Assembly (NCBI GenBank): GCA_048538275.1
Contig: JBLYPW010000002.1
Coordinates: 103,927 to 167,926, forward strand
DNA length: 64,000 nt
Reading direction: 5' to 3'
Origin: Candidatus Komeilibacteria bacterium
GTDB taxonomy: Bacteria; Patescibacteriota; Patescibacteriia; UBA1558
Of the stretch, positions 18,537-60,352 are shown piece by piece. Position 1 is the stretch's first letter, and each line of letters opens with the position of its first letter. The position numbers and the translations under genes were made by a program. The notes under the pieces are model-generated. The model worked only from the letters and a program-made list of their open reading frames with translations, did not search any database and was not told the DNA's origin.

Positions 18537-18698
18537 AATAGTGGCCTTGTAAAATCTACCAGGAGTGGCGCGCCTTGGATAGTAGTACATAGAGAGGAGT
18601 TTATTACTAGACAAGCTGCTTATAAAAGGGAACGTCAAATAAAATCGTATAAAGGTGGTACAGCATTTAAGAGATTGTTTAAAAATAAAATAGATTAA
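18537..18698 (+). pseudogene. 3' fragment of a GIY-YIG nuclease gene (duplicate copy A)
   Basis: near-identical to 18914-19075 (2 mismatches); in-frame TAG TAA immediately upstream; no start codon. Confidence 0.8.
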
Positions 18699-18704
18699 GT
18701 ACAT

Positions 18705-18815
18705 GGGTCGGTACCGAAGCGGTCCCCGCCACATTAGCGTTGCTAATGCACGGGGCGGGCAACCGGGCAGACTGCCACCGCCCTTGGCGGGGTGCCGCCA
18801 CAGGCGGCATAAATC
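18705..18815 (+). other. pseudo-tRNA-Tyr 5' portion (positions 1-40) interrupted by two 35-nt GC-rich hairpin modules
   Basis: 18705-18724 identical to tRNA-Tyr nt 1-20; insert 18725-18759; tRNA-like CAACCGGGCAGACTG; insert 18775-18809; then TAAATC. Confidence 0.7.
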
Positions 18816-18823
18816 TATTAATT

Positions 18824-19075
18824 ATGTATCTGGTTTATATATTACAAAGTAAGCTTTCTGGGCGTTATTACATTGGTCAGACAATTAATTTGGATAAGAG
18901 ATTAAAGAGACACAATAGTGGCCTTGTAAAATCTACCAGGAGTGGCGCGCCTTGGATAGTAGTACATAGAGAGGAGTTTATTACTAGACAAGCTGCTTAT
19001 AAAAGGGAACGTCAAATAAAATCGTATAAAGGCGGTGCAGCATTTAAGAGATTGTTTAAAAATAAAATAGATTAA
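18824..19075 (+). CDS. GIY-YIG nuclease family protein (small, YhbQ/UPF0213-like)
   Basis: MYLVYILQS...GRYYIGQT...KRLKRHNSG...REEF..R.AAYKRERQIKSYKG is the characteristic GIY-YIG pattern. Confidence 0.85.
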   Translation: MYLVYILQSKLSGRYYIGQTINLDKRLKRHNSGLVKSTRSGAPWIVVHREEFITRQAAYKRERQIKSYKGGAAFKRLFKNKID

Positions 19076-19081
19076 GTACAT

Positions 19082-19167
19082 GGGTCGGTACCGAAGCGGT
19101 CAACCGGGGCAGACTGTAAATCTGCTGGCTTTCGCCTTCGTAGGTTCGAATCCTACCCGGCCCACCA
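19082..19167 (+). tRNA. tRNA-Tyr (anticodon GTA), long variable arm, CCA encoded
   Basis: anticodon stem GCAGA/TCTGC with loop CUGUAAA; T-arm GGTTCGAATCC; acceptor GGGTCGG/CCGGCCC. Confidence 0.85.
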
Positions 19168-24689: not shown

Positions 24690-25020
24690 CGTTAAGGTCT
24701 TTTTTAATTGGTCAGGAAACCCCGCACGAGCCCCCAGCGAGTGCGGGGATGAATGACTCCTCTCTTAACACGAACCGAAGGGTCGTGTTAAGCTATAACC
24801 ATGAGAATCCGAGCTCTAAATCATTCCACCTATCAACACCAATATCATATAGTTTGGGGAACAAAGTATCGCCGGAAATTTTTGAAAGAGTATGTTAAGC
24901 CAGAAGGATACACCGCAAACAACTACGTTCGGATTCTAATGAAACGAAAGGAAACCCCGCCTGAAAAAAGACTACCTTTGGGTAGTCTTTTTGAGCGCGG
25001 GGAGGATGTCATTTGTTTTA
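24690..25020 (+). mobile_element. decayed IS200/IS605-like remnant: two GGAAACCCCGC...GCGGGG subterminal-type hairpins bracketing a truncated Y1-transposase (TnpA) N-terminal fragment
   Basis: hairpins at about 24700-24746 and 24952-25009 share the 12-mer AGGAAACCCCGC; ORF 24801-25025 begins HSTYQHQYHIVWGTKYRRKFL like IS200 TnpA but lacks the HuH region. Confidence 0.55.
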
Positions 25021-25025
25021 GATAG
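24801..25025 (+). pseudogene. truncated IS200/IS605 TnpA (Y1 transposase) fragment
   Basis: YHIVWGTKYRRKFL matches the TnpA N-terminal beta-strand; the HuH motif is absent. Confidence 0.5.
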
Positions 25026-25108
25026 CTATATTACTATTTTAAAAAACATTGTTGTTTGTCAGTATTTTGTGAGATAATGAATATAGCCAATATTATCAAG
25101 TTTTTTTT

Positions 25109-26992
25109 ATGAATAAAAGGATAAGTTGTATTATTTTAGCTTGCGATTCACACATTACTAAAGGTTTTTCTATTTTTCACAGTTTGTTATCTGTTGTACG
25201 ACAGGATTATCTAAATGTTGAGATTATTATTGTGGAAAATAGTCATAGTAAACCTTCTTATGTAAAAGAGTTAAAGAGGAAGTTCTGCAAGTGGAATGAA
25301 TCAAATAAGGGTAAAATGACTTTAAAATTTATTAATAATACAAAGTCGCTAAGTCGTGGGGCGGCGCGTAATATTGGATTAGAATTTGCAACTGGGAATA
25401 TTATAATTTTTTTAGATGATGATACTATTCTTTTGGGACGAAATTATTTTTCTAAAATAATTAAGTTGTCTAGTAGATATGATTATGGCTATGGGGCGAA
25501 TCGTTATTGGACTTCGAATAAAATGTTTCAGAAAAAACATAGGATATTGTTAAAATTGTTTGAAAATAATGAAATTATCCAGTTAAGATCAATGGTTTCT
25601 TCTCCGTCAGTGGAGGGAAGACAGGATGATGATTCTGCTCATTATTTGAGTAAAACATTTATTGGTAATTTTGGGTTTGTTAAAGCTAATTTAATTAAAA
25701 AGGTGGGAGGATTTCCTAATTTTAATGGGTATGGATATGAAGATGATTTTTTGATGTTTAAATTATATAAATCGTATGCAAAAATGGTCATATTAGACGA
25801 CATGGAAGTTATCCATGTAAATCATAAGGTGTGTGAAAGCGGCAGGGAAAATTTTATACTTTATTTTAAAGAGTTAGTTCGTAGCGGATTTTATGGGTTT
25901 AATATTATTAAAACGCTTATTAGCGGCCACAAAAGAGAAGAAGTGTTGGAGCCTTTAAAAGTTTTACATTTTGATAGTCGGGTGGAAAGTATGTTTGAAA
26001 AATATAGGAGCTTACTACCTATCAATTTATATAATTCTACTATTAAACAGAAACAGTACTGTAAAGATAATTATATTTTGTCAAAGTTACGGTTTGTACA
26101 ACTATTATTTAAATTGGAGAATTCTCCTAGTATTGATGATTTTATTTCTAATAGTAGTGCAGATTTTGATAATTTGGCTAATATCATATCTATTGCCTTA
26201 GATTTTGATTTCATCAAGATGAATGGTGATTCTAAAATTACTTATACTTTTGGTTTTCAGTACACAAGTTTATTCTTAGCTAATTCACACGTTGATCCAA
26301 AATTAATTCCAAAAAATTCATTGAATCAATTTCCGTGTAATATGCAATCAAGGCGAAGGCGGTACAATTTTATTAAAGAGAGATATCCATATGTTGAATA
26401 CTTAAAGTTTGCTATAATAGGGGATGATGATTTTTTAAGTTTGGAATTTATTAATGATTATTGGGCGTGGCCAGTGATTATTGAAAAGGATAGTAGGATA
26501 ACTAGATTGTTAAGGAGTGTAAGTGATAGGTTTATGGTTTATGATCTGGATGTTGCAGATAATGACTCATTGAAAAAATTATCTAAAGTTCAAACCTTTA
26601 TTACAGATCCTCCTTATACTCTTGATGGGGCACTGGCTTTTATTTTCTTCGGTTTGTCTATGTTGGTTAATAGTGATGATATAAAAGAGTTTTACGTTAT
26701 TTTAAATCCAGCTATGATGGGAAGGAAGCTATTTCGTTTGCAGAAAATTCTTGCCAATGCTAATATTATTTTAGTAGATGTTATTAATAACTTTAGTCAA
26801 TATAATTTACCTACTAATTATGTTGAGAATAAACGCGCAGGAAAGTTTTCTGTTCAACATGGTATTAAGAAGAATAGTATTAAAACAAGCTCCTCATCAA
26901 ATATGTACATTTTTTCGACAGTTACGCCTGACTTGCAAGAGGTGAGAAGAAATATTAATTATAATAAAATGTATAATCATTATGATAACTAA
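25109..26992 (+). CDS. bifunctional-looking protein: N-terminal GT2 glycosyltransferase fused to a C-terminal class-I methyltransferase/aminopropyltransferase-like domain (GDDD...DPPY)
   Basis: GT2 motifs: VVENSHS, FLDDDTIL (DxD), GYGYEDDFLMF. C-terminal motifs: IIGDDDFLSLEF, MVYDLDVAD, FITDPPYT. Markedly AT-richer than flanking genes. Confidence 0.65.
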   Translation: MNKRISCIILACDSHITKGFSIFHSLLSVVRQDYLNVEIIIVENSHSKPSYVKELKRKFCKWNESNKGKMTLKFINNTKSLSRGAARNIGLEFATGNIIIFLDDDTILLGRNYFSKIIKLSSRYDYGYGANRYWTSNKMFQKKHRILLKLFENNEIIQLRSMVSSPSVEGRQDDDSAHYLSKTFIGNFGFVKANLIKKVGGFPNFNGYGYEDDFLMFKLYKSYAKMVILDDMEVIHVNHKVCESGRENFILYFKELVRSGFYGFNIIKTLISGHKREEVLEPLKVLHFDSRVESMFEKYRSLLPINLYNSTIKQKQYCKDNYILSKLRFVQLLFKLENSPSIDDFISNSSADFDNLANIISIALDFDFIKMNGDSKITYTFGFQYTSLFLANSHVDPKLIPKNSLNQFPCNMQSRRRRYNFIKERYPYVEYLKFAIIGDDDFLSLEFINDYWAWPVIIEKDSRITRLLRSVSDRFMVYDLDVADNDSLKKLSKVQTFITDPPYTLDGALAFIFFGLSMLVNSDDIKEFYVILNPAMMGRKLFRLQKILANANIILVDVINNFSQYNLPTNYVENKRAGKFSVQHGIKKNSIKTSSSSNMYIFSTVTPDLQEVRRNINYNKMYNHYDN

Positions 26993-28370
26993 ACATAAGC
27001 TTAAGCCAAATGATATTACTTTCTTAAATGAAAGTGATGTTTTATATTCTTTGGATTTTAGAGTATTGAGTGAAAATATAGACTATAAGATACCAACTAT
27101 GTGGAAATATGAAAATATATTACCATGGATACTTTCTGGTAGAAATGTTGTTGTTAATGAAAATTATACTGCCTTAGAGTATCCAAATAAAAATTCATTT
27201 GTTGTTACAAAGAAAACAAAAGATCCAAGAGTATCAATCTATGAAAGAATGTCAAAAGGATTAATGGGGGATAATATAAAAAAATTATGGGTAGCTGTGC
27301 CACATCCTGATGCTGATATTTTTTGTAAGGAAAATAAATTAAAAATTAACTATAATTATGATTCTTATCTCAAGTATAATAATAAAATCGAGCAAAAGAA
27401 ATTACTAGGTAATGCGAGCCCTAATTGGAAACTTATTTCGTCCTTTGATGAAATTAAAGGATTACAAAAAAAATATACAACAGGTTATATTAAGAGAAAG
27501 TTTGGATCGGGTGGCTATACGGTTTTTGAATTAAATAAATTGGATCATAATTTTTCTAAATTATTTAAAGAGTCATCAAATGAATGGTATTTTGAAGAGG
27601 AGGTTAAAGGAAAGGCTTATAGTATTCAATGCGTTAAGGATGGTAAAAATGTAACAGTTTTTGGATTCTCAGAACAAATTATTGAAGGACATAAGTTTTA
27701 TTCTGGTTCTAAGATTTTATCTCTTGATTTACTTAATATAAAGCTTTTTAACCAAGTTAAAAAAGCTTTAAGTAGATTTGGTGAATTTTTAGCTGACTAT
27801 AATGGTTTATTTGGCTTAGATTTTATTATTGATAAAAATAATAAAGTTTTTATTTTAGAGGCAAATATTAGGATAACTGCAGTGACAATTTCTACTTTAT
27901 TATTTAATATGGTGGGTGCAGAATCAGCTCTATTTAGGGAAGATGTAAAGAATGATAATATGGCTAAAGATGATGTGGTTCTCACATGCGAAGTTGACAA
28001 TATGAAGGACGTCCTTAGTTTTAATTCAGTTAAAGGTGTTTTAGGAATGAGCATCTATGTAGATTTTAAAAATTGCTTAGTCAACGTAAAAAGAATGGAT
28101 GATAAAGTTGCTAGAGAAATATCTGAAATTGTTAATATGATAATTAGCAATGTAGAAAAGATAGACTATCATAATTTTTGGCCGTACGGTTGGACATTGT
28201 CATTAATACTATCTAATTCACATTGCGTTATGAGTAGTTGGTATTTAGAGAAAAGAGTCTTGGTTGATGTTTTTAGTTGTAATTTAGATTATGATCAGAA
28301 ACTATTTATTAAGAAAATGTCTGATTATTTTAAGTCTAAAAATAATAAATTTAAAGTAGAATTAAGATAA
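26982..28370 (+). CDS. ATP-grasp family ligase
   Basis: C-terminal ATP-grasp signature GLFGLDFIID...NKVFILEANIR; start overlaps the upstream gene by 11 nt. Confidence 0.65.
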   Translation: MITKHKLKPNDITFLNESDVLYSLDFRVLSENIDYKIPTMWKYENILPWILSGRNVVVNENYTALEYPNKNSFVVTKKTKDPRVSIYERMSKGLMGDNIKKLWVAVPHPDADIFCKENKLKINYNYDSYLKYNNKIEQKKLLGNASPNWKLISSFDEIKGLQKKYTTGYIKRKFGSGGYTVFELNKLDHNFSKLFKESSNEWYFEEEVKGKAYSIQCVKDGKNVTVFGFSEQIIEGHKFYSGSKILSLDLLNIKLFNQVKKALSRFGEFLADYNGLFGLDFIIDKNNKVFILEANIRITAVTISTLLFNMVGAESALFREDVKNDNMAKDDVVLTCEVDNMKDVLSFNSVKGVLGMSIYVDFKNCLVNVKRMDDKVAREISEIVNMIISNVEKIDYHNFWPYGWTLSLILSNSHCVMSSWYLEKRVLVDVFSCNLDYDQKLFIKKMSDYFKSKNNKFKVELR

Positions 28371-28375
28371 ATAGT

Positions 28376-29407
28376 TTGGAAATGAATAATTATATTGTAA
28401 TTCCGCCTTATTATAAGGGTACTGCATTTCAGGAGATTGTAATACATATGCTTGTTGCGGTAAAAAAAACAAAGTACAATATAAAATTTATCGGTCTACT
28501 AGAACCAATAGATAATACCTTATCAGGGTTTTTGTTGGATGATGAGATTTATACCAAGTATCAATCTTTTTTAATTTCTGATTTAATGAATTTGAAGACA
28601 CCTGCTAAAATATTATTTTTGGATTTTTTTAATTTAGGTTTCGATTTATTACGATATTTACATGAACAAACTAATGCGAATGTTAAATATGGATCGTTAA
28701 TTCATGGAGGGTCATTTTTTGATGAAGACATATATAATATGCCGTGGTTGAGTAACTTTGAGAATGCGTGGGCAGATTTATATGATACGATGTATATAGC
28801 TTCAAATTATGGTAAGAATAGACTTCCGGATAGTTTCAAAGATAAGGTTAAAGTTATTCCTTGGGGGATGGATGGGTTTAGAAGTGAAGCATCAGTTAAT
28901 AAAATTAATGATGTTATTTTTCCACATAGATTGAGCCCAGATAAGGGGGTTGAGGATTTTATAATGATTGTTGACTCTTTGCCGCAAGTAAAGTTCATCG
29001 TGACTGTGCCTCAAAAAAAGAGTGTAATTAGCAAAAATAAATATTATAATGTCCTAAAAAAATATACTAATGTAAAATTTATTTTCAATGAGAGTATGGA
29101 AAATCACAATATAACATTATCCTCTGCAAGAGTAGTTTTGAGTTGTGCTAAACAAGAAATTTTTGGCTACTCTATTGCTAAGTCTGTTGCGTCAGGGTGT
29201 ATCCCAGTATTACCAAAAGATCAATGTTATCCAGAATTTTATCAAAGGAAATATTTATACAAGAATATACAAGATGCTATTTCTATGATAGAGGATGTTA
29301 TTATTGAGTCGAAAAGTAATACTTTATCAAATGAGGGCAATAGTAAATGTATTTATGATTTTGAAACATTTTCATTTAAGAACCATTTTGATGATTTTTT
29401 TGGTTAA
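28376..29407 (+). CDS. glycosyltransferase group 1 (GT4-like)
   Basis: C-terminal E-x7-E-like region QEIFGYSIAKSVASGCIPV; FPHRLSPDKG. Confidence 0.6.
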   Translation: MEMNNYIVIPPYYKGTAFQEIVIHMLVAVKKTKYNIKFIGLLEPIDNTLSGFLLDDEIYTKYQSFLISDLMNLKTPAKILFLDFFNLGFDLLRYLHEQTNANVKYGSLIHGGSFFDEDIYNMPWLSNFENAWADLYDTMYIASNYGKNRLPDSFKDKVKVIPWGMDGFRSEASVNKINDVIFPHRLSPDKGVEDFIMIVDSLPQVKFIVTVPQKKSVISKNKYYNVLKKYTNVKFIFNESMENHNITLSSARVVLSCAKQEIFGYSIAKSVASGCIPVLPKDQCYPEFYQRKYLYKNIQDAISMIEDVIIESKSNTLSNEGNSKCIYDFETFSFKNHFDDFFG

Positions 29408-29441
29408 AAAAGAGAGTATATATGATATATACTCTCTTTAG
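29408..29441. terminator. bidirectional terminator between the convergent GT1 and GGCT genes
   Basis: aaagagagtatatat-ga-tatatactctcttt palindrome with A/T runs on both sides. Confidence 0.6.
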
Positions 29442-29854
29442 TAATTAACATCGATTTGGGATACAATTTTTTTTATGTTCTTACATTCTCCGATAATTAC
29501 CGATGATTTAGCAACAAATACTATACCTTTGGATTTTTTACCATCAACTTCATAAAAAGTTGTCTCTTTCGGTTCATATAGAGGGCCTTCAAATTCATTA
29601 AGGCGTGATTTTAGTACGGCAAGTGAATTATTAGATACTGTGAACTGAGTTAACCATGCACTAATTTGCAGACCATTATCATCTAATATCACAATTGGGT
29701 ATTTAAAGATATTATTTGGCTCTGTTTCATCCGTCACTTCATACAAGTACCCCTTGATAAAACCAAGAGTTCTTTTTGTGGGTGATGTTTTGAGAATTTT
29801 TTTAATAAGTTTAACATTTTTTAATGATCCGTAAAATATAAATGAACAATTCAT
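29438..29854 (-). CDS. gamma-glutamyl cyclotransferase-like (AIG2/GGCT family) protein
   Basis: N-terminal FIFYGSLKN (YGSL/YGTL motif); LGFIKGYLYEV. Confidence 0.6.
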   Translation of the reverse strand: MNCSFIFYGSLKNVKLIKKILKTSPTKRTLGFIKGYLYEVTDETEPNNIFKYPIVILDDNGLQISAWLTQFTVSNNSLAVLKSRLNEFEGPLYEPKETTFYEVDGKKSKGIVFVAKSSVIIGECKNIKKIVSQIDVNY

Positions 29855-30068
29855 TTTACCTCCTTTTTTGTTTGATTTTATATATTAACATAGTTTTAAT
29901 AATTGTCAATTGTAGTGTCTTTTTTTGGTTAGCTAATAAGATTATTAAGCTAGTGATGATTATTTACAGATCAGTATTCAGACTGGGTTAATAATTTTGG
30001 TATGTAAATATAATCAGTTTCTTGTTGAATTATGGTTATAACTTCATCTACGACTGACTGCCATGAAA

Positions 30069-38735: not shown

Positions 38736-39587
38736 ATGAAAAGAATAAGTATAATAAAAGCAGATGGCAGTAAGCGCGCTTTTAGCTATAAGAAATTATT
38801 ACATTCAGTAGAACGAGCCGGAGCTAATAGAGAAACAGCCAAGCGAGTGGCTAAATCTGTTTTAGCGCAGTTGCCTCGGGAAATAAATACCAATCAGCTT
38901 TATGATTTAATATATAAAGAATTGCGCAGTACGCATAGACCGGCGGCGCAAGTTTATTCTTTACGCCGAGCTTTGGCTGATTTGCCGCCGGAAGTATGGG
39001 AGAAATATATTGCAAAATTGTTTTCTTATTATGGTTATATTACGACATGGAATGTGATAGTGCCGGGCGCTAGCGTAGAACATCAAGTGGATGTTATTGC
39101 AAAACGAGATGATAAAGTTTGGCTGATAGAATGTAAGCATCATTACGATTATCATCGCGACACCGGCTTGGGCGAAATTTTACAGGTACAAGCTAGATTA
39201 GAAGATGTGCAAGATGGGTATAAAATTGGTAAAAATAAATATGGTTTTACGGGTGCTTGGTTAGTAACTAATACAAAATTTTCTAATCATAATAAACGTT
39301 ATGCCGAAGCAAAAAAAATAAATTTAAGCGGTTGGCGTTATCCGGAGAAATATAGTTTAGAGCGCCTGATACAAGATAAGGCAGTTTATCCGCTTACTAT
39401 TCTTTCATTGGATAAGCAGAGTCGTCATTGGTTAATGAATAATAACATTCTTACCTTGCAAGACGTCTTAGCAAATGGCAATAAGATTATAAAAAATTTG
39501 GGTAAAGATAAGGCAGATCGCTTAGCTCGTCAAGTGCAGCATTTGTTGGATTTTGGTACAGAACAATCAGGCTGGACAAGATTGTAG
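38736..39587 (+). CDS. ATP-cone domain fused to an Mrr-like restriction endonuclease domain
   Basis: N-terminal IIKADGSKRAFSYKKLLHSVERAG (ATP-cone); central Mrr_cat-like D...E.K: VEHQVDVIAKRDDKVWLIECKHH. Confidence 0.65.
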   Translation: MKRISIIKADGSKRAFSYKKLLHSVERAGANRETAKRVAKSVLAQLPREINTNQLYDLIYKELRSTHRPAAQVYSLRRALADLPPEVWEKYIAKLFSYYGYITTWNVIVPGASVEHQVDVIAKRDDKVWLIECKHHYDYHRDTGLGEILQVQARLEDVQDGYKIGKNKYGFTGAWLVTNTKFSNHNKRYAEAKKINLSGWRYPEKYSLERLIQDKAVYPLTILSLDKQSRHWLMNNNILTLQDVLANGNKIIKNLGKDKADRLARQVQHLLDFGTEQSGWTRL

Positions 39588-39677
39588 TTTTTCGTTAAAC
39601 TACTGTCGTTATGTTTCTGATTTTTAGATTATATAGCATAAATTGATGTCTGGTTCTGACTACGGCGTGACAAGTTA

Positions 39678-39698
39678 TAATATATCGGGCTGTAGCGC
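39678..39698 (+). repeat. duplicated 5' end of tRNA-Pro (acceptor plus D-stem, with 8 nt of upstream flank), direct repeat of 39807-39827
   Basis: taatatatcgggctgtagcgc identical at both sites. Confidence 0.8.
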
Positions 39699-39733
39699 CC
39701 CGTACAACTCAATTCTTTCGTTTACGGGGCAAG
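39699..39733 (+). other. 35-nt hairpin module CCCG-N21-ACGGGGC (same architecture as 18725-18759)
   Basis: cccgta...tacgggg stem; ACGGGGC heptamer at offset 26-32 in both modules. Confidence 0.6.
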
Positions 39734-39814
39734 CAGTTTTAGCCACAGGCTAATTAACTTCTGGCCAAGACTAGCACCAAGGTTATTTTTTTGATAGAAG
39801 AATATTTAATATAT

Positions 39815-39891
39815 CGGGCTGTAGCGCAGTTGGCTAGCGCGCCACGTTCGGGACGTGGAGGTCGGAGGTTCAAGTCCTCTCAGCCCGACCA
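39815..39891 (+). tRNA. tRNA-Pro (anticodon CGG)
   Basis: acceptor CGGGCTG/CAGCCCG; anticodon stem CCACG/CGTGG with loop UUCGGGA; T-loop TTCAAGT. Confidence 0.85.
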
Positions 39892-39978
39892 TAAAATTTT
39901 TTCACTATAAGATTTTATGGATAATTATTTTCAAATAAAGCTAAATATTTTAAGTATCTATTATTTTAATATTGTAAT

Positions 39979-40404
39979 ATGTTAAAGAACGTATCAATAG
40001 TAGTAATAATCATTTTAGTCATTATAGCCGCGTGGTGGTATTGGTTTGATAACTCAGTCGTATCTCCGCCGCTTCAAGAAGAGCCTGCTGTTGTTATATT
40101 AGATGATTTGCGAGCTGGAGATGTGATCAGTAGTCCATTAACTTTTCATGGTCAGGCACGGGGTTGGTGGTTTTTTGAAGCCAGCTTCCCGGTACATATA
40201 TTGGATGATAAAGATAATATTATAGCTACCGGTTTAGCTACGGCTAGTAGTGATTGGATGACTGAGGATTATGTTCCTTTTACCGCTCAGATAAAATTTA
40301 CTGTCCCGCCAGGAGTAAAAGGCACATTGGTATTACAAAAAGATAATCCTTCCGGTTTACCAGAACATGATGCCAGTATCATTCTACCAATAAAATTTAA
40401 GTAG
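39979..40404 (+). CDS. hypothetical secreted protein (Gmad2/Ig-like domain possible)
   Basis: N-terminal TM or signal; beta-rich C-terminus; tentative. Confidence 0.4.
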   Translation: MLKNVSIVVIIILVIIAAWWYWFDNSVVSPPLQEEPAVVILDDLRAGDVISSPLTFHGQARGWWFFEASFPVHILDDKDNIIATGLATASSDWMTEDYVPFTAQIKFTVPPGVKGTLVLQKDNPSGLPEHDASIILPIKFK

Positions 40405-40405
40405 T

Positions 40406-40708
40406 ATGGCTTTTATTCGTCAGAAAGAGGATTTTGTTTGTACTCACTGTGGTCAGTCGGTAACCGGTGATGGCTATACCAATCATTGTCCGCATTGCTT
40501 ATATTCCCGCCACGTAGATATAGAGCCGGGGGATAGAGCAGCCGTTTGCAATGGCATGATGGCGCCGTTTGATTGGGAACAGCAAGGCAAGGAAATTGTT
40601 ATTATCCATCGTTGTGAAAAATGCGGTTTAATTCGACGCAATCGTCTGCAAGCGGGGGATAACCAAGAAATCATATTAGAACTTAGTCAGCGCAAGAGCA
40701 GAGAGTAA
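40406..40708 (+). CDS. RNHCP-domain protein (zinc-ribbon)
   Basis: CTHCG...YTNHCPHCLYSRH...CEKCG; contains the literal NHCP motif. Confidence 0.65.
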   Translation: MAFIRQKEDFVCTHCGQSVTGDGYTNHCPHCLYSRHVDIEPGDRAAVCNGMMAPFDWEQQGKEIVIIHRCEKCGLIRRNRLQAGDNQEIILELSQRKSRE

Positions 40709-40769
40709 TTAGTTTTGAGGTATAAAAAAACCCCTACCAAGTTAATCTCAATAGGGGGTTTGGTTGTTT

Positions 40770-41060
40770 TTAGCCAGCAATACGCTGGCTTAATTTTTTT
40801 CCAATCAAGACGATAATTGATGCGAGAAGCCACACCGCTGTTATCGCAAATATTGGGTATTGTTCAAGATTTTTGATAATGGCACCCGCTGTGCCGTGGC
40901 TTGCTGCGTAGGAGAATAGAAGCGCCGTGTAAAACGTTATTGTAAGTAACATCCCCCACGCCATGCTTTCGCACATACTTTTCATTTTAAGTCCTTCCTG
41001 GTTTTTATTGGTCTTTTTAGAGGATGTAAATATGATAGCATATATATTATATTTTGTCAA
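40770..41060 (-). CDS. small hypothetical membrane protein
   Basis: two hydrophobic helices. Confidence 0.4.
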   Translation of the reverse strand: MTKYNIYAIIFTSSKKTNKNQEGLKMKSMCESMAWGMLLTITFYTALLFSYAASHGTAGAIIKNLEQYPIFAITAVWLLASIIVLIGKKLSQRIAG

Positions 41061-41304: not shown

Positions 41305-42303
41305 CTATATCCTCTTTCTTTTTTTTAGTATAATTTTAGCTGGACAGCTAGAATTTATTTGAGAAGATTTAGAGATTATTTCTAGCAGTGCCAGGTGTTC
41401 ATTATTTAGTAGCTTTAAACTGTTTGTCAAGAGTGATAATATTGCAAGAGCTTTGTTTCGCAGTGTAGATGATGGGTATCTTAGTATATCTGATGAGAGA
41501 ATATCAAATAGTTTAGATTTCTCAGTATTAGGTAGATTTGTAACTAGTGGTATTAGTTGTAATAGTATAATATTTTTCTCTTTTTCTGATCCAGTAGTAA
41601 GATTTTTCAGTAATTTTTTAAATAGTATAGAATCCTTTTTTACCCAGCTCATAGCATATAATTCCTCATAGGTGTAGTTATTTTCATTATCACGATTAAG
41701 TAAATTATTATCTGTATCCTCCATTATCTGGTTGATTTTTTTTTCGATTTTGTATAATTGTCTATTCTGTGAAAATAACATTCCATCAATTTTTATATAT
41801 TTTATATTTACATTTGATTTTTCAAATAGAAGTTCAGATAATTTTTCATGCTTCTTTATAATAGAATTTAGTTTATTATTTTGGTTTGAAGATTGTTTTT
41901 TTGGGCCTATCATTTGAAGTAGTTTAGGATTTTTGGTTATATCTATATTGATTACAGTATGTCCCTTATCTGGATAATAAGGATTCATTGTAGAACACAC
42001 AATCCAATTATTCTTTTCTAATTCATGAATTATTTTTTTTATAATAAATCTAAATTCTTTTGTGTTATATTTATTACCTAAATAGTATCCAACAATTTTT
42101 GGATTGTTTTCTAAAATAGGTAGAGATGATCCGCTATATGACCACAATTCAATGTCTTTGAGAGTGTATTTCATGCAATTATTATAACATAAATTGGGCT
42201 TATTTATATAATTATAACCTTGGTGAGTGTTCACGTAGAAAATAGGGTATTTTAGAACCATTTTTTTGTAAGATTTATATTTATTACAATCTATTCTTGA
42301 CAA
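41305..42303 (-). CDS. hypothetical protein (AT-rich orphan, 332 aa)
   Basis: long ORF with strongly AT-biased codons; no recognisable motif. Confidence 0.45.
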   Translation of the reverse strand: MSRIDCNKYKSYKKMVLKYPIFYVNTHQGYNYINKPNLCYNNCMKYTLKDIELWSYSGSSLPILENNPKIVGYYLGNKYNTKEFRFIIKKIIHELEKNNWIVCSTMNPYYPDKGHTVINIDITKNPKLLQMIGPKKQSSNQNNKLNSIIKKHEKLSELLFEKSNVNIKYIKIDGMLFSQNRQLYKIEKKINQIMEDTDNNLLNRDNENNYTYEELYAMSWVKKDSILFKKLLKNLTTGSEKEKNIILLQLIPLVTNLPNTEKSKLFDILSSDILRYPSSTLRNKALAILSLLTNSLKLLNNEHLALLEIISKSSQINSSCPAKIILKKRKRI

Positions 42304-56332: not shown

Positions 56333-57265
56333 ATGAACAATAAAGCTGTAATAATTTTAACCATCATTTCAATTTCATTATCACTGTTATTACTGTTTTT
56401 TTTATTAATAGGCATATATTGGTTTAAACGTGGAGATGCTTGTTTAACACAACCACCATATTTAAATTGTCATACCCAAAATAAGTTTGAGGAAATAGAT
56501 GCTGAATTTAATAATTTATCAGGACAAATATTAAGCCTAAATGAACCATCTATTTTTAGTATTGATAAAAATGAAGGCGTTTTTTCTTTTGACCATATAG
56601 GCGAAGATACTGATTTTGGAGTAGGCTGGACTAGGATAATGCAAAATGAAGAGATTAAAGATTCTTTAGGTTTTTACACATACTATATAGATCCTATTCT
56701 TACACCTTTAACAAAAGATACTTTGATTGGATCAGCTTGGCAATACCCACAAGATTCAAAACTATATAATGGACCATTTATTAATTATTATTTAGATTTT
56801 AAAACCAGAAAAACAGTTGAATTGCCGACTAAAGGCAGGATTATTTCCAAATCTCAAGATGGACAAAAAGTGGTTTTTCTGGAAAGCGCTTGCGACAAGG
56901 AACATATACCCGAACCAACAGCGGATTGCAATAATTTAGATTTGAGTTTGAGGATTATTGATCTAACGTCAGATTTAAATGGTATGATGATTAATCATTA
57001 TTACGCGATGAACCATTGGACAGACCAGGGACCACCCTATGTTAATTTTTTGGATTTTGGCAAACTTGTATTCTCACCCGACGGAAATAGGCTGGCAATG
57101 GAAATTAAAATTGAACAAATTGACTATGACACCCCGAGTGAATATTGGACTCTATTTATCGCTGATACTAAGACAGGAGAAATTATCAAACAGAACAACA
57201 GATTATCCAAGAGTGGATATGAATATATGTTTTGGTCAGATAATGAAAATGTGATTTATTGGTAA
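56333..57265 (+). CDS. hypothetical secreted/membrane-anchored protein (AT-rich)
   Basis: N-terminal TM; no recognisable motif. Confidence 0.45.
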   Translation: MNNKAVIILTIISISLSLLLLFFLLIGIYWFKRGDACLTQPPYLNCHTQNKFEEIDAEFNNLSGQILSLNEPSIFSIDKNEGVFSFDHIGEDTDFGVGWTRIMQNEEIKDSLGFYTYYIDPILTPLTKDTLIGSAWQYPQDSKLYNGPFINYYLDFKTRKTVELPTKGRIISKSQDGQKVVFLESACDKEHIPEPTADCNNLDLSLRIIDLTSDLNGMMINHYYAMNHWTDQGPPYVNFLDFGKLVFSPDGNRLAMEIKIEQIDYDTPSEYWTLFIADTKTGEIIKQNNRLSKSGYEYMFWSDNENVIYW

Positions 57266-57269
57266 ATTA

Positions 57270-57914
57270 ATGAAAAAGATAATAACTACTTTAATTATTC
57301 TAATTGTTATTTTATTGTTTTTTGTTTTTGCAATAAATATTCATATAAACAAAATTGGTAGTAATATGTGTGATTTGGATAATATAAATCAACAAGCCGC
57401 TTTAGTTTTGGGTGCTAAAGTTTGGAATAATGGTAACTTGAGCGATATTTTTAAAGATAGGATTAATACAGCTATTGATTTGTATAATAAGGGAGAAGTA
57501 GAAAAAATTTTAGTTAGCGGCGATCATGGTCAAACGGATTATGACGAAGTAAATACCGCTAAAGAGTATCTGTTAGACAATGGGGTAAGGTTAGAAGATA
57601 TTTTTTTAGATCATGCTGGGTTTGATACTTATGATAGTCTTTATCGCGCTCGAGATGTTTTTAAAGCCGAATCATTGGTTGTAGTTACACAAAACTTTCA
57701 TCTACCGCGAGCTTTATATATAAGTAACAAGTTAGGCTTGGATTCTTGTGGTGTAAGTGCTGATTTACATAAGTATTTAGGTGAAACCACTAGGAATAGA
57801 AGAGAAATTTTGGCAAAAGTAAAAGCTTGGTTAAATATTATTTTTAATTCAACCCCCAAATATTTAGGAGATAAAATTCCCTTGTCTGGTAGCGGTTTTA
57901 ATAGTTGGGATTAA
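57270..57914 (+). CDS. DUF218 (SanA/YdcF/ElyC-like) domain protein
   Basis: N-terminal TM; ALVLGAKVWNNG...ILVSGDHG pattern. Confidence 0.6.
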   Translation: MKKIITTLIILIVILLFFVFAINIHINKIGSNMCDLDNINQQAALVLGAKVWNNGNLSDIFKDRINTAIDLYNKGEVEKILVSGDHGQTDYDEVNTAKEYLLDNGVRLEDIFLDHAGFDTYDSLYRARDVFKAESLVVVTQNFHLPRALYISNKLGLDSCGVSADLHKYLGETTRNRREILAKVKAWLNIIFNSTPKYLGDKIPLSGSGFNSWD

Positions 57915-57926
57915 TGAAATGATTAT

Positions 57927-60065
57927 ATGAAAAAAATTTATTTGATTTCACTCATAACAATCGTAGTAGGTTTAATATTTTATACACTACCTCATTGGTT
58001 TAGTTTTTTGTGGGGTTTTCAACTTTTATTATTGCCCATGTTAGCTGGTGTGTTGATGGTATTAGTTCAGAATGAAGATAGGACTTATAGGTTTTTACCA
58101 AAACTTATTACTGGGTCATTGATAGCAAGTTTTGTTTATTTAATTTTATTGCAAGTAATCGAATATGATCATGATGGTTATTTTGTTTTTTTTGGTTTTT
58201 TAATGCCAGCATTATTTTTAACAGGTGTTAGTATATTCGGTGGTTTAGTAGGAATTGTTATTAAAGGTACCGCTTTGTTATTGAATATAAAATCCGAATC
58301 GAAATTTATTTTAATAGTTAAGAAAATATTTGGAGGATTATTTTTAAGTATAGATTCGATTTTAACATTGATAGCTATTGTATTTTTTTTGATAGTAGCG
58401 TTTTATCCTTCAAGCTCTTGGCTCAACATGGTTATGGTTGATTTTAGAGTAATAGATGTAGTTGGATTTTTTAATTATTATTTGTTGCTTATCTCTGTAT
58501 TATTTATTTTTACAACACCGTTGATATTTGTCACTAATTTAGGTTTAATTTTACTGTTTCCTCTAAAAAGATATTTGAATAAAAAATTATCTTCTCGTTT
58601 AATCATTTATTTTTTTATCTTTTTAGCCGTTTTTCTTTTATCGTCTTCTTATTTGAATTCTAAATTTGAATTAAAGAAAGCAGAAATGAAAAAAAATAAT
58701 ACTAAAGAACATTTTGATATTAAAGATTTTAACAAAATAAATGTTTCGCGTTTTGTTGAATTTGATGAGATAAAAATTATTCAAGGCGATAAATTTGATA
58801 TAGTGGTTAAGGGTAGTCAATATGACCAAATAGGACTTGATATTGAAAAAAACGATGATAAAACATTAGTAATAAAAAGATCAGAGCTTGAAACGTATTA
58901 TAATACTGAAACTTGGACAATGGAGAATGAAGATTCTTTGTTTCCTGCTGGTACTAAGCATTTGGTTATAGAAATAATTATGCCCGATATTGAAAAGATT
59001 GTTTTAGATGGAGGTCATATAGAACTGGTAGATTTTGATGTTGATAATGTTGACATCGAACTCAATAAGCGATTTACTGATATCAAAGGTAATATCATAG
59101 TTGAAGACACATTAAAACTAGATGCTAAAGGAGGCGTAATTAATTTGTCTGGTTCGGCTAAAAATTTAATCATAAATTCAGGCGACTGTTGGATTGAAAT
59201 GGATAAATTTATAGTTCAAGATGCCATTATTGATGCAGTAAATACCAGCAGATTGAATGTGAATGTAAGTAATAATATGGAAATAGAAATAAACAAAAAT
59301 TCTGGTATCACAAATCATAATAATAGTGAAGTTTGGGATTCAGAAATTCAGGAGCTAGCGTTTAAACTCAAATCAAGTATTTCTGGTATAAATATCAGTT
59401 TTCCGAAGGATTCATCTCTTTGGTGGAATGATGAGGATGGCTATAGTATTTTAGTTCCTGGAAACGAATCAATTGAAGTTGTTGGGGATGATGGTGTTAG
59501 GTCTGATAATTTTGCTGAAAGTAGTTTTGTCGCTGAGTTGTTGGATATTACTAAACAAGTGTTATCTACTAGGGGATTTATTTTAAATGAGAGTAATTCA
59601 TCTGCAAATATAATGGATAAGAAGTTTTATGACTATGTTCGAGCATATAAAAATGATGATAAGTTGTGTGTAGTTAGGGTTAATCCTGATTATAGCTCTT
59701 ATGGTTGTACTGATAATATGTTGATGTGTAATGTGGTAGAGATAACCTGTGGTAATGATTTAGCTGGAAGCCAGGTTCAACAAAGACCGTTTTTAGAAGC
59801 ACTTGAACTGCAAAACAAAGAAACAATTGTACAAATCATAAAACAAATTGGAGATTTTTATAAAGTTGCTATTAGCTATCGTCGTACTGGTTCAACAGGA
59901 GTTGTTAAAAAAGAGGATGGTGGTTTACGACTTTTATATACGAGTCAAGAAGATCCACATTGTGAAATAGTAGAAACAGAACGTATTCCAAGTAATGTAC
60001 TTGAGGGTTTTGAAATAAATGGCTGTTGGACTGAAAATGGGTATAGAAAATTTAGTGGAAATTAA
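57927..60065 (+). CDS. large hypothetical membrane protein (multi-TM N-terminus, about 470-aa extracytoplasmic C-terminal domain)
   Basis: 712-aa ORF, very AT-rich; about 8 hydrophobic helices in the first 240 aa. Confidence 0.5.
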   Translation: MKKIYLISLITIVVGLIFYTLPHWFSFLWGFQLLLLPMLAGVLMVLVQNEDRTYRFLPKLITGSLIASFVYLILLQVIEYDHDGYFVFFGFLMPALFLTGVSIFGGLVGIVIKGTALLLNIKSESKFILIVKKIFGGLFLSIDSILTLIAIVFFLIVAFYPSSSWLNMVMVDFRVIDVVGFFNYYLLLISVLFIFTTPLIFVTNLGLILLFPLKRYLNKKLSSRLIIYFFIFLAVFLLSSSYLNSKFELKKAEMKKNNTKEHFDIKDFNKINVSRFVEFDEIKIIQGDKFDIVVKGSQYDQIGLDIEKNDDKTLVIKRSELETYYNTETWTMENEDSLFPAGTKHLVIEIIMPDIEKIVLDGGHIELVDFDVDNVDIELNKRFTDIKGNIIVEDTLKLDAKGGVINLSGSAKNLIINSGDCWIEMDKFIVQDAIIDAVNTSRLNVNVSNNMEIEINKNSGITNHNNSEVWDSEIQELAFKLKSSISGINISFPKDSSLWWNDEDGYSILVPGNESIEVVGDDGVRSDNFAESSFVAELLDITKQVLSTRGFILNESNSSANIMDKKFYDYVRAYKNDDKLCVVRVNPDYSSYGCTDNMLMCNVVEITCGNDLAGSQVQQRPFLEALELQNKETIVQIIKQIGDFYKVAISYRRTGSTGVVKKEDGGLRLLYTSQEDPHCEIVETERIPSNVLEGFEINGCWTENGYRKFSGN

Positions 60066-60162
60066 TTTAAATTGTATCCAAGTTTAGTAAAATGGAGAAT
60101 GGCTGTTATTCTAGAGACTTGATTACAGTTCGAATGTTAGCCTTGAAGAGTTTAACAAAAGA

Positions 60163-60192
60163 GTTCTAAAGTTGTCCCGGTATGCGAGCCAA
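60163..60192 (+). repeat. 30-bp direct repeat copy 1 (GTTCTAAAGTTGTCCCGGTATGCGAGCCAA)
   Basis: identical copy at 61449-61478; the two copies flank the Fic gene. Confidence 0.85.
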
Positions 60193-60213
60193 TTTTTTAA
60201 GGGATTTTTAGCA

Positions 60214-60335
60214 GATAATTGCAGATTGCAGCGATTGAGGTTATAGTAATGCAGCAATAAATTGTTGTTTTTATTACTAAATTTGATGATTTATATATAT
60301 TATGCAGCAATAACGTATTTGAAATGCAGCAATTA
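60214..60335 (+). promoter_or_regulatory. array of TGCAGCAAT-type repeats upstream of the Fic gene (candidate operator array)
   Basis: ATGCAGCAATAA at 60249-60260 and 60302-60313; ATGCAGCAATTA at 60324-60335; TTGCAGATTGCAGCGATTG at 60219-60237. Confidence 0.5.
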
Positions 60336-60352
60336 AGTGCTATAATAAAAGC

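What the first reader, a model, noticed from the sequence alone, without database searches (positions are those of the whole stretch)
38736..39587. ATP-cone domain fused to an Mrr-type restriction endonuclease domain next to tRNA-Pro
The N-terminal 90 aa match the ATP-cone nucleotide-sensing domain of NrdR and ribonucleotide reductases (IIKADGSKRAF...LHSVERAG...YSLRRAL). The following region has an Mrr_cat-like D...E.K core (VDVIAKRDDKVWLIECKHH).

A nucleotide-pool-sensing module coupled to a PD-(D/E)xK nuclease is a plausible allosterically gated nuclease, perhaps defence-related or dNTP-responsive. It sits at a tRNA locus that also shows the duplicated tRNA-fragment and hairpin footprint. 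Downstream lie an RNHCP zinc-ribbon protein and an AT-rich 332-aa orphan.
Basis: partly seen in the sequence, partly recalled or inferred. Interest (0 to 1): 0.55.

Follow-up and report, generated by a model that had tools for sequence, protein, structure and literature searches.

The report
ATP-cone-gated nuclease tied to nucleotide catabolism
This gene encodes an uncharacterised nuclease fused to an ATP/dATP-sensing domain, and in related microbes it sits in operons that break nucleotides down for carbon and energy, so it looks like a metabolically gated scavenging nuclease and not an anti-phage weapon.

Summary

The defence reading is not supported. About 230 homologous loci show no defence neighbours, phages give no hits, and only 2 of 72,556 plasmids match. 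Gene order is lineage-stable. The Komeilibacteria clade is nested in a clade where 24 of 26 informative loci read e2b2 (R15P isomerase-like) - AMP phosphorylase - apgM - nuclease. Criblamydia and Pontibacter carry nuclease - beta-CASP nuclease - AMP-phosphorylase-like - Prs.

Best explanation, by inference: an adenine-nucleotide-gated nuclease that feeds nucleic-acid breakdown products into the AMP/pentose-bisphosphate pathway. In the window itself those partner genes are absent. The local partner is the RNHCP zinc-ribbon gene, and the tRNA-Pro adjacency is incidental. The family is large, named only by domain in databases, and I found no characterisation in the searchable literature. Substrate and direction of regulation are untested.

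The parts
38736..39587 (+). Complete gene for the 283-aa ATP-cone / AF1548-type PD-(D/E)xK nuclease / (HhH)2 protein
   Evidence: ORF. Three Pfam domains above their gathering scores. 100% identical to an NCBI protein named 'MAG: ATP cone domain-containing protein [Candidatus Komeilibacteria bacterium]'. AlphaFold model with pLDDT 94.8 and pTM 0.90.
38748..38975 (+). ATP-cone domain (residues 5-80), the predicted adenine-nucleotide sensor
38979..39326 (+). Mrr_cat / AF1548-type PD-(D/E)xK nuclease domain (residues 82-197). Catalytic codons: E89 at 39000-39002, D119 at 39090-39092, E132 at 39129-39131, K134 at 39135-39137
39387..39545 (+). AF1548-like C-terminal helical domain (residues 218-270), an (HhH)2-like nucleic-acid-binding module
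40406..40708 (+). RNHCP zinc-ribbon protein gene, the lineage-conserved downstream partner in Komeilibacteria. Its function is unknown.
   Evidence: Pfam PF12647, E 6e-30. In L081, L082 and L093-L096 the RNHCP gene abuts or overlaps the nuclease gene. It is absent from the 80 non-Komeilibacteria loci.
39588..40405 (+). Sub-lineage-specific insert between the nuclease and RNHCP genes: tRNA 5'-fragment copy plus hairpin (39678-39806), tRNA-Pro(CGG) (39815-39891) and a Gmad2 Ig-like gene (39979-40404). This is context, not part of the system.
   Evidence: Relatives L081, L082 and L093-L096 have no such insert.

Best explanation
The gene encodes a cytoplasmic three-domain enzyme. It has an N-terminal ATP-cone that binds adenine nucleotides, a metal-dependent AF1548/Mrr-type PD-(D/E)xK endonuclease core, and a C-terminal (HhH)2 module that holds nucleic acid without sequence specificity.

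By analogy with ribonucleotide reductases and NrdR, I infer that nucleotide occupancy of the cone (ATP versus dATP, or ATP versus ADP/AMP) changes the oligomeric state and so switches cleavage on or off.

The biological role I consider most likely is metabolic, not defensive. The nuclease would open up nucleic acid (RNA or DNA; undetermined) so that exonucleases can release nucleoside monophosphates. In some bacteria a beta-CASP enzyme is encoded beside it. The monophosphates would then enter the AMP phosphorylase / ribose-1,5-bisphosphate isomerase (pentose-bisphosphate) pathway or nucleotide salvage. The ATP-cone would act as the feedback sensor that keeps a dangerous intracellular nuclease off when the adenylate or dATP pool is replete.

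Shown here: the domain architecture, intact catalytic residues and most cone residues, the fold, and the gene-neighbourhood statistics. Inferred: nucleotide binding, gating, its direction, the substrate, and the physiological role. In this Komeilibacteria genome the gene has left the AMP-pathway operon. It sits after a sugar-catabolism gene array and before its lineage-specific partner RNHCP.
For: Architecture and fold. Catalytic E89/D119/E132/K134 and further residues are invariant in 37 homologues. Cone lid and helix residues equivalent to the E. coli NrdR inner-site contacts are conserved. The K-A-D-G lid is compatible with binding because E. coli NrdR has K53-S54.

Context 1. In the clade that contains the query's Komeilibacteria group (NJ tree), 24 of 26 loci with at least 1.5 kb of upstream sequence have IF-2B(e2b2)/AMP phosphorylase/apgM or a His_Phos mutase directly upstream on the same strand. 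These span at least 14 clusters at 70% identity. The phosphorylases reach NCBIfam's AMP_phos equivalog cut-off: 557 and 539.5 against 535.

Context 2. Criblamydia (Chlamydiota) and Pontibacter (Bacteroidota) carry nuclease - beta-CASP/RMMBL nuclease - archaeal-type thymidine/AMP phosphorylase - Prs, tightly packed. The beta-CASP gene is also adjacent in a Chlamydiia MAG and in L010.

Context 3. Other nucleotide-metabolism neighbours occur: NTPase_I-T in Komeilibacteria, YfbR-like 5'-deoxynucleotidase, DeoC and PRPP synthase, and an AAA_28 kinase-like P-loop protein in two Bacteroidota.

The AMP pathway is documented as a nucleotide-catabolic route in CPR and DPANN organisms. The two key papers mention no nuclease (PMC5113843, PMC6389311).
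Against: The 64-kb window contains none of the pathway partners. For this particular gene the role is therefore extrapolated from relatives.

In the largest CPR group sampled (Paceibacteria-type, 55 of 76 loci) the gene lies between mnmA and alaS, often with DNA-repair genes and not with catabolic genes. Undinarchaeota and Micrarchaeota loci show no metabolic link.

PD-(D/E)xK plus (HhH)2 suggests duplex DNA. The pentose-bisphosphate pathway is ribose-specific and the beta-CASP partner looks like an RNase. The substrate is therefore unresolved.

In this protein and its close relatives the lid glutamate (E59 of E. coli NrdR) is Arg, Thr or Gln. The helix-4 tyrosine mapping is ambiguous. Some ATP-cones detected by the Pfam profile are known to be non-functional (PMC4390871). 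There is no biochemical evidence. Gene neighbourhood is only guilt by association. The tree is a rough NJ tree without support values.
Confidence: 0.5

Rival explanations
1. Anti-phage or anti-plasmid defence nuclease. In this reading it is a Mrr-like (type IV restriction-like) or abortive-infection effector, switched on by the ATP-cone when infection perturbs ATP or dNTP pools.
For: Mrr_cat domain. PADLOC match to the ZorD Mrr-like nuclease domain, E 6e-8. Structural neighbours include modification-dependent restriction enzymes (AspBHI, MspJI) and ligand-activated defence nucleases (Can2, Card1, NucC, Cap4). A sensor fused to a PD-(D/E)xK nuclease is a common defence layout.
Against: No defence genes, methyltransferases, integrases or islands flank the gene in about 230 loci. 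Gene order is stable within lineages, and the gene sits tightly on the same strand in housekeeping or metabolic operons. There are no phage hits and only 2 of 72,556 plasmids match. The PADLOC hit covers only the nuclease domain of a 1071-position model. The N-terminal Mrr DNA-recognition domain is absent.
Confidence: 0.1
2. DNA-repair endonuclease. It would work in base-excision or mismatch-type repair, comparable to NucS/EndoMS or an AP-site/nick-processing nuclease. Incision would be licensed by the ATP-cone only when dATP or ATP is available for resynthesis.
For: In 30 of 76 Paceibacteria-type loci a repair gene lies within four genes downstream: family-4 UDG, UNG, an MGMT-type DNA-binding protein or a Cas4-like PDDEXK_1 nuclease. 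It is often the very next gene. The (HhH)2 domain resembles those of RAD51 and of X/Y-family polymerases, and NucS is a top structural neighbour.
Against: The association is confined to one class. It lies in a variable slot of a long housekeeping array (leuS...mnmA-X-alaS-infA-rps) that also holds peptidases and other unrelated genes. It is not seen in the query's own clade, in the AMP-linked clade or in the Bacteroidota and Chlamydiota loci.
Confidence: 0.17
3. RNA-processing or RNA-turnover nuclease dedicated to translation-related RNA (tRNA or rRNA maturation or decay), with no link to nucleotide catabolism.
For: Neighbours include mnmA, alaS, leuS, THUMP/ThiI-like and TtuA-like tRNA-modification genes and ribosomal protein genes. 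A beta-CASP/RMMBL RNase-type partner is present in four loci. Some PD-(D/E)xK enzymes cleave RNA, for example Can2 and Card1.
Against: The canonical metal-dependent DNA-nuclease motif and the (HhH)2 module are more typical of DNA enzymes. The translation-gene context is a large conserved superoperon in which many unrelated genes ride. It does not explain the near-obligatory AMP phosphorylase linkage.
Confidence: 0.1

Closest known systems
AF1548 of Archaeoglobus fulgidus (PDB 1Y88), a structural-genomics protein of unknown function that was predicted to be a restriction-endonuclease-like enzyme
   Different: The crystallised AF1548 chain (199 residues) has only about 22 residues ahead of the nuclease core, so it has no ATP-cone. 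Its function has never been determined experimentally as far as the searchable literature shows.
NrdR, and the ATP-cones of ribonucleotide reductases (NrdA, NrdB of Leeuwenhoekiella, NrdD)
   Different: The output domain is a nuclease, not a reductase or a zinc-ribbon DNA binder, and there is no zinc ribbon. The sequence relationship is weak (profile E about 0.01). The lid Glu is replaced in the query's clade. The regulated process would be nucleic-acid cleavage, not dNTP synthesis.
Mrr-family type IV restriction endonucleases (Pfam Mrr_cat)
   Same: The catalytic domain family is the same, above the Pfam cut-off, with the same E...D...ExK motif and a TNT-K-F-S/T segment.
   Different: It lacks the N-terminal Mrr DNA-recognition domain and carries an ATP-cone instead. 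It has an extra (HhH)2 domain. Its genomic context is metabolic or housekeeping, not mobile or defence-related.
CARF/SAVED-nuclease effectors (Can2, Card1, Cdn1, Cap4, NucC)
   Different: The sensor is an ATP-cone that binds ordinary adenine nucleotides, not a CARF or SAVED domain that binds cyclic oligonucleotides. No CRISPR or CBASS genes are nearby.
Archaeal AMP / pentose-bisphosphate pathway operon (deoA AMP phosphorylase, e2b2 R15P isomerase, form III RuBisCO)
   Same: In the clade that contains the query, the nuclease is the last gene of e2b2-deoA-apgM arrays.
   Different: No nuclease has been described as part of this pathway in the papers examined. The window's own copy is not linked to these genes.

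Membership tests
ATP-cone domain (PF03477) | Profile match above the curated cut-off | tested here: met
   37.2 bits against a gathering score of 25.8, residues 5-80.
ATP-cone domain (PF03477) | Four-helix cone with a beta-hairpin lid (the fold) | tested here: met
ATP-cone domain (PF03477) | Conserved nucleotide-contact residues: lid Lys, lid Glu, Phe, helix-1 Lys/Leu, helix-3 Ser/Thr and Ile, helix-4 Tyr | tested here: inconclusive
   K8, F16, K20, L21, R27, T52 and L55 correspond to E. coli NrdR K53, F61, K65, L66, R72, S105 and I108. The lid Glu (E59) is R14 in this protein, although it is Glu in the family consensus. The position equivalent to Tyr131 is ambiguous.
ATP-cone domain (PF03477) | Actual binding of ATP/dATP and allosteric effect | not testable with these tools
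   Needs biochemistry.
PD-(D/E)xK nuclease, Mrr_cat family (PF04471) | Profile match above the cut-off and the restriction-endonuclease-like fold | tested here: met
PD-(D/E)xK nuclease, Mrr_cat family (PF04471) | Catalytic E ... D ... (E/Q)xK residues intact and conserved | tested here: met
   E89, D119, E132 and K134 are invariant in 37 sequences down to 29% identity.
Mrr-type type IV restriction enzyme (full-length Mrr) | N-terminal winged-helix Mrr_N DNA-recognition domain; modification-dependent cleavage | tested here: not met
   The N-terminus is an ATP-cone and no Mrr_N match was found. Modification dependence is not testable here.
AF1548-like proteins (PDB 1Y88; PF22357 C-terminal domain) | AF1548-type nuclease core followed by the AF1548-like C-terminal helical domain | tested here: met
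NrdR transcriptional repressor | N-terminal zinc ribbon followed by an ATP-cone | tested here: not met
   There is no zinc ribbon, the cone is N-terminal and a nuclease follows it. No NCBIfam NrdR match.
Known anti-phage defence systems (PADLOC-DB) | Match to a defence protein model plus the system's partner genes nearby | tested here: not met
   Only a partial match to the nuclease end of ZorD (profile positions 917-1051 of 1071). The neighbours gave no PADLOC hits. No defence context in about 230 loci.
AMP / pentose-bisphosphate pathway gene cluster | Adjacency to, and same strand as, deoA (AMP phosphorylase) and e2b2 (R15P isomerase) | tested here: not met
   For the window's own gene there is no deoA, e2b2, apgM, beta-CASP or Prs anywhere in the 64 kb. 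The feature is met in the clade in which the query is nested: 24 of 26 informative loci.

The most novel reading that the evidence does not exclude
The ATP-cone/AF1548 nuclease is the regulated entry enzyme of a nucleic-acid-to-central-carbon route: nucleic acid to NMP, then AMP phosphorylase to ribose-1,5-bisphosphate, on to RuBisCO or glycolysis. If so, it would be the first ATP-cone shown to control something other than dNTP synthesis. It would work as an energy-charge or dATP-gated switch that decides when a cell with minimal biosynthesis (CPR, DPANN, and also Bacteroidota and Chlamydiota) digests RNA or DNA for carbon, energy and nucleotides.
Probability: 0.35. Interest if true: 0.78.

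Novelty: new variant of a known kind. Interest (0 to 1): 0.6.

Why it matters
ATP-cones are the classic allosteric on/off switch of ribonucleotide reductases and of the repressor NrdR. A nuclease under ATP-cone control would extend that switch to nucleic-acid degradation.

CPR bacteria and DPANN archaea lack de novo nucleotide synthesis and are thought to live off scavenged nucleic acids through the AMP/pentose-bisphosphate pathway. The papers examined name no enzyme, and no control point, that feeds polymers into that pathway. This family, which sits as the last gene of e2b2-deoA-apgM arrays, is a concrete and testable candidate.

The family is large, with thousands of sequence clusters. It also occurs in cultured bacteria: Pontibacter actiniarum, Chitinophaga eiseniae, Psychroserpens ponticola and Criblamydia sequanensis. 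Genetics and biochemistry are therefore feasible. The analysis also warns against labelling every sensor-plus-PD-(D/E)xK fusion as a defence gene.

Tried and rejected
- **Defence reading.** PADLOC on the protein and three neighbours gave only a ZorD nuclease-domain hit. Phage tblastn found nothing, and the plasmid search found two records whose context is metabolic.
- **NCBIfam on the protein.** Nothing near any curated cut-off.
- **Single-sequence PDB search with the ATP-cone alone.** Only spurious HU hits. A profile of the cone reached NrdD and NrdR only weakly, E about 0.01, with designed helical repeats scoring higher. The cone assignment therefore rests on Pfam plus the fold.
- **Genome scan.** The first scan with the 37-sequence alignment failed because it had no sufficiently conserved stretch. 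It was repeated with a 10-sequence alignment.
- **RNHCP as a family-wide partner.** Rejected: it is absent from all 80 non-Komeilibacteria loci.
- **AMP-pathway linkage as family-wide.** Rejected: it is absent from the 80 GTDB loci and confined to one clade plus the bacterial cassette.
- **tRNA-Pro as an integration site that explains the gene's presence.** Rejected: most Komeilibacteria relatives have no tRNA there.
- **Intergenic 39588-39814 as a known RNA.** No Rfam family at the gathering or E-value thresholds.
- **Literature.** Nothing on an ATP-cone nuclease, on RNHCP, or on AF1548 beyond the 2007 prediction. The paper on AMP phosphorylase substrate range (PMC3510611) was not available.

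Full report
**1. Observation**

The quoted peptides are present at residues 6-16, 22-29, 74-80 and 118-136.

Pfam gives three domains, all above their curated gathering scores:
- ATP-cone, residues 5-80, E 4.3e-9.
- Mrr_cat, residues 82-197, E 4.6e-9.
- AF1548-like_C, residues 218-270, E 4.3e-8.

The sequence matches the solved structure 1Y88 (AF1548 of Archaeoglobus fulgidus) at E 1.5e-32 over residues 91-258. The protein is 100% identical to an NCBI entry named 'MAG: ATP cone domain-containing protein [Candidatus Komeilibacteria bacterium]'. The window therefore comes from a CPR/Patescibacteria genome.

tRNA-Pro(CGG) lies at 39815-39891. RNHCP lies at 40406-40708, and a Gmad2 Ig-like gene at 39979-40404.

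**2. Anatomy**

An AlphaFold2 model built on a 37-sequence alignment is very confident: mean pLDDT 94.8, pTM 0.90.

In 37 homologues spanning 64% down to 29% identity, E89, D119, E132 and K134 are invariant. So are H116, H136, R154, D157, N179, Y189 and W200. AF1548's predicted catalytic D/E/K triad (PMC1821046) aligns with D119, E132 and K134. The nuclease is therefore very likely active.

For the cone, a profile alignment to E. coli NrdR was read against the published inner-site contacts (bioRxiv 10.1101/2025.03.28.645925). The mapping is V51/K53/F61/K65/L66/R72/S105/I108 onto I6/K8/F16/K20/L21/R27/T52/L55. G11 and F16 are invariant and K8 nearly so.

The family's K-A-D-G lid lacks the Arg of the common K-R-D-G motif. 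E. coli NrdR has K53-S54 at those positions, so this does not argue against binding.

Two caveats apply. The lid Glu (E59 in NrdR) is Glu in the family consensus but R14 here, and Arg, Thr or Gln in close relatives. The position of the ATP/dATP-discriminating Tyr is ambiguous.

**3. Size and spread of the family**

An exhaustive phmmer search of 1.84 billion representatives finds 827 relatives at E <= 1e-3 and 567 at E <= 1e-10. Nearly all are 265-295 aa and match end to end. The three-domain fusion is therefore old and stable.

A pattern scan of one genome per GTDB species confirmed 322 loci. Most are Patescibacteria, with DPANN archaea (Undinarchaeota, Micrarchaeota) and a few Nitrospinales and Archaeoglobales.

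Searching with the Criblamydia member shows at least 6,551 clusters at 90% identity. These include cultured Bacteroidota (Chitinophaga eiseniae, Psychroserpens ponticola) and Chlamydiia.

Databases name these proteins only by domain: 'ATP cone domain-containing protein', 'restriction endonuclease', 'Holliday junction resolvase-like'. Full-text searches found no paper on an ATP-cone nuclease, on RNHCP, or on AF1548 beyond the 2007 prediction.

**4. Genomic context**

This evidence changes the interpretation. The contexts fall into five groups.

(a) Komeilibacteria. Nine further loci at 60-65% identity share the window's order:
- ROK kinase - GH1 - EamA - GH-like - nuclease - RNHCP (- NTPase_I-T) ... 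hrcA-grpE-dnaK.
- In six of them RNHCP directly follows the nuclease gene, abutting or overlapping it where gene calls are available.
- tRNA-Pro is next to the nuclease in only three of the nine.
- The window's 818-bp insert (tRNA fragment, tRNA-Pro, Gmad2) is therefore a sub-lineage rearrangement.
- The '332-aa orphan' has a 42%-identical homologue in the same position upstream of hrcA in L081.

(b) The clade nearest to the query (36-52% identity).
- One member is annotated by NCBI as Aenigmarchaeota. I did not verify the domain of life of the others.
- All five context look-ups showed IF-2B-family (e2b2) / AMP phosphorylase / phosphoglycerate mutase, or DeoC-phosphorylase-mutase, or a His_Phos mutase. 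These lie directly upstream on the same strand.
- In 41 metagenomic loci of this clade, 24 of the 26 with at least 1.5 kb upstream have these genes. tblastn gaps run from 2 nt upward.
- Nineteen of 21 loci with at least 3.5 kb upstream have the phosphorylase.
- The linked loci fall in at least 14 clusters at 70% identity.
- The phosphorylases reach NCBIfam's AMP phosphorylase equivalog cut-off.
- The IF-2B proteins match ribose-1,5-bisphosphate isomerase best, but below its cut-off.
- A rough NJ tree places the Komeilibacteria clade inside this clade.

(c) Bacteria outside the CPR.
- Criblamydia sequanensis and Pontibacter actiniarum, both on large plasmids, carry nuclease - beta-CASP/RMMBL nuclease - archaeal-type thymidine/AMP phosphorylase - ribose-phosphate diphosphokinase. 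The genes are overlapping or nearly so.
- A Chlamydiia MAG and L010 also have the beta-CASP gene immediately downstream.
- Two Bacteroidota chromosomes have an AAA_28 P-loop protein downstream, with CstA, Usp, PFK and DeoC nearby.

(d) Paceibacteria-type CPR.
- In 55 of 76 loci the gene follows mnmA; where mnmA is the very next gene upstream (40 loci) the median gap is 7 nt.
- The array reads leuS - sigma/HARE-HTH - unknown - mltG - mnmA - X - ... - alaS - infA - rpsM - rpsK - rpsD.
- In 30 of 76 loci a repair gene (UDG family 4, UNG, MGMT-type, Cas4-like PDDEXK_1) lies within four genes downstream.

(e) Nitrospirota, Undinarchaeota, Micrarchaeota and others. Contexts are varied. They include a YfbR-like 5'-deoxynucleotidase 5 nt upstream in one locus.

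Nowhere did I see restriction-modification, CRISPR, CBASS, toxin-antitoxin or integrase contexts. Phage genomes give no hit.

**5. Mechanism**

Shown: a sensor domain with the ATP-cone fold and most of its ligand contacts; an intact metal-dependent nuclease; a non-specific nucleic-acid-binding module; a cytoplasmic protein whose N-terminus is the ATP-cone itself, which leaves no room for a signal peptide.

Inferred: adenine-nucleotide occupancy of the cone alters oligomerisation, as in RNRs and NrdR, and thereby gates cleavage.

The context argues that the gated activity serves nucleotide and nucleic-acid catabolism. The AMP pathway converts NMPs to ribose-1,5-bisphosphate and on to 3-phosphoglycerate. 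It is regarded as a key nucleotide-utilisation route in CPR and DPANN organisms (PMC5113843, PMC6389311). Those papers name no nuclease. A nuclease (plus a beta-CASP exonuclease in bacteria) encoded in the same operon would supply the NMPs. The ATP-cone would provide feedback from the adenylate or dATP pool.

The direction of regulation and the substrate are open. PD-(D/E)xK plus (HhH)2 favours duplex DNA. The ribose-specific pathway and the RNase-type beta-CASP partner favour RNA.

For the window's own gene the pathway partners are absent from the 64 kb. The role here is therefore extrapolated. Locally the gene follows sugar-catabolic genes at a 22-nt gap and is partnered with RNHCP, and in relatives with an ITPase/XTPase-family gene as well.

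**6. Rivals**

- Defence: about 0.1. It has structural and domain resemblance only, and the context and mobility evidence speak against it.
- DNA repair: about 0.17. It is supported by the repair-gene neighbours in Paceibacteria, but only there.
- Dedicated tRNA/rRNA processing: about 0.1.
- A purely regulatory, non-catalytic role is unlikely given the invariant catalytic residues.

**7. Comparison and novelty**

The protein is a member of the ATP-cone, Mrr_cat and AF1548-like domain families, and those tests are met. It is not a full-length Mrr (no Mrr_N domain), not NrdR (no zinc ribbon) and not a known defence system.

It works like ligand-gated PD-(D/E)xK nucleases such as Can2 and Card1, but with an ATP-cone as the sensor and in a metabolic setting. 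The architecture is already recorded in databases, so the fusion itself is not new. What appears to be new is the functional placement: a large, uncharacterised family linked to the AMP/pentose-bisphosphate pathway.

I rate it a new variant of a known kind, interest 0.6.

Noticed in passing
window 39678-39827: An exact 21-nt direct repeat, TAATATATCGGGCTGTAGCGC, at 39678-39698 and 39807-39827. It covers 8 nt of leader plus the first 13 nt of tRNA-Pro. The 108 nt between the copies form a strong hairpin (GCGCCCCGTA...TACGGGGC) and end in a T-run. The predicted fold has z = -3.2, and there is no Rfam match.
   Followed up: partly
window 18661-19101: tRNA-Tyr shows the same phenomenon on a larger scale. 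An exact 64-nt repeat (44 nt of leader plus the first 20 nt of the tRNA) occurs 377 nt apart. The insert starts with a GC-rich hairpin region and encodes a small GIY-YIG nuclease (Pfam E 3.9e-16). Both inserts share the motif GCCACAGGC. This looks like a small GIY-YIG-associated element, with a miniature derivative at tRNA-Pro, that duplicates the 5' part of tRNA genes.
   Followed up: partly
window 41305-42303 (-): The AT-rich (GC about 0.27) 332-aa 'orphan' has a 42%-identical homologue in the same position, divergent from hrcA, in another Komeilibacteria genome (L081 11646-12509). It has no Pfam or NCBIfam family. It is a conserved lineage-specific gene of unknown function.
   Followed up: partly
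window 40406-40708; L081 8837-9148; L082 8821-9150: The RNHCP zinc-ribbon gene abuts or overlaps the nuclease gene in most Komeilibacteria, which suggests translational coupling. An NTPase_I-T (ITPase/XTPase family) gene follows it there. The window lacks that gene. No literature on RNHCP was found.
   Followed up: partly
window 25001-30000 and 57001-61000: Two long stretches with GC 0.26-0.30, against about 0.38-0.40 for the rest of the window. They may be horizontally acquired or otherwise unusual regions. I did not examine them.
   Followed up: no
L004-L080 (Paceibacteria-type loci), about 8 kb either side of the homologue: A highly conserved same-strand array: leuS - sigma70_r4/HARE-HTH protein - unknown 421-aa protein - mltG - mnmA - [nuclease] - variable slot - alaS (short, about 600 aa) - unknown - unknown - infA - rpsM - rpsK - rpsD - rpoA - rplQ. 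The variable slot collects DNA-repair genes (UDG4, UNG, MGMT-type, Cas4-like) and peptidases (M3, M29, M13).
   Followed up: partly
window 40731-40790: Back-to-back terminator-like hairpins on both strands lie between the RNHCP gene and a small (96-aa) predicted membrane ORF on the minus strand at 40770-41060.
   Followed up: no
L087 10595-12199: One member of the 'AMP clade' contig set carries a 534-aa protein with Sigma70_r2/r4 domains next to archaeal-looking genes (Archease, TtuA, ThiS). The archaeal versus bacterial origin of parts of this clade is therefore not settled.
   Followed up: no
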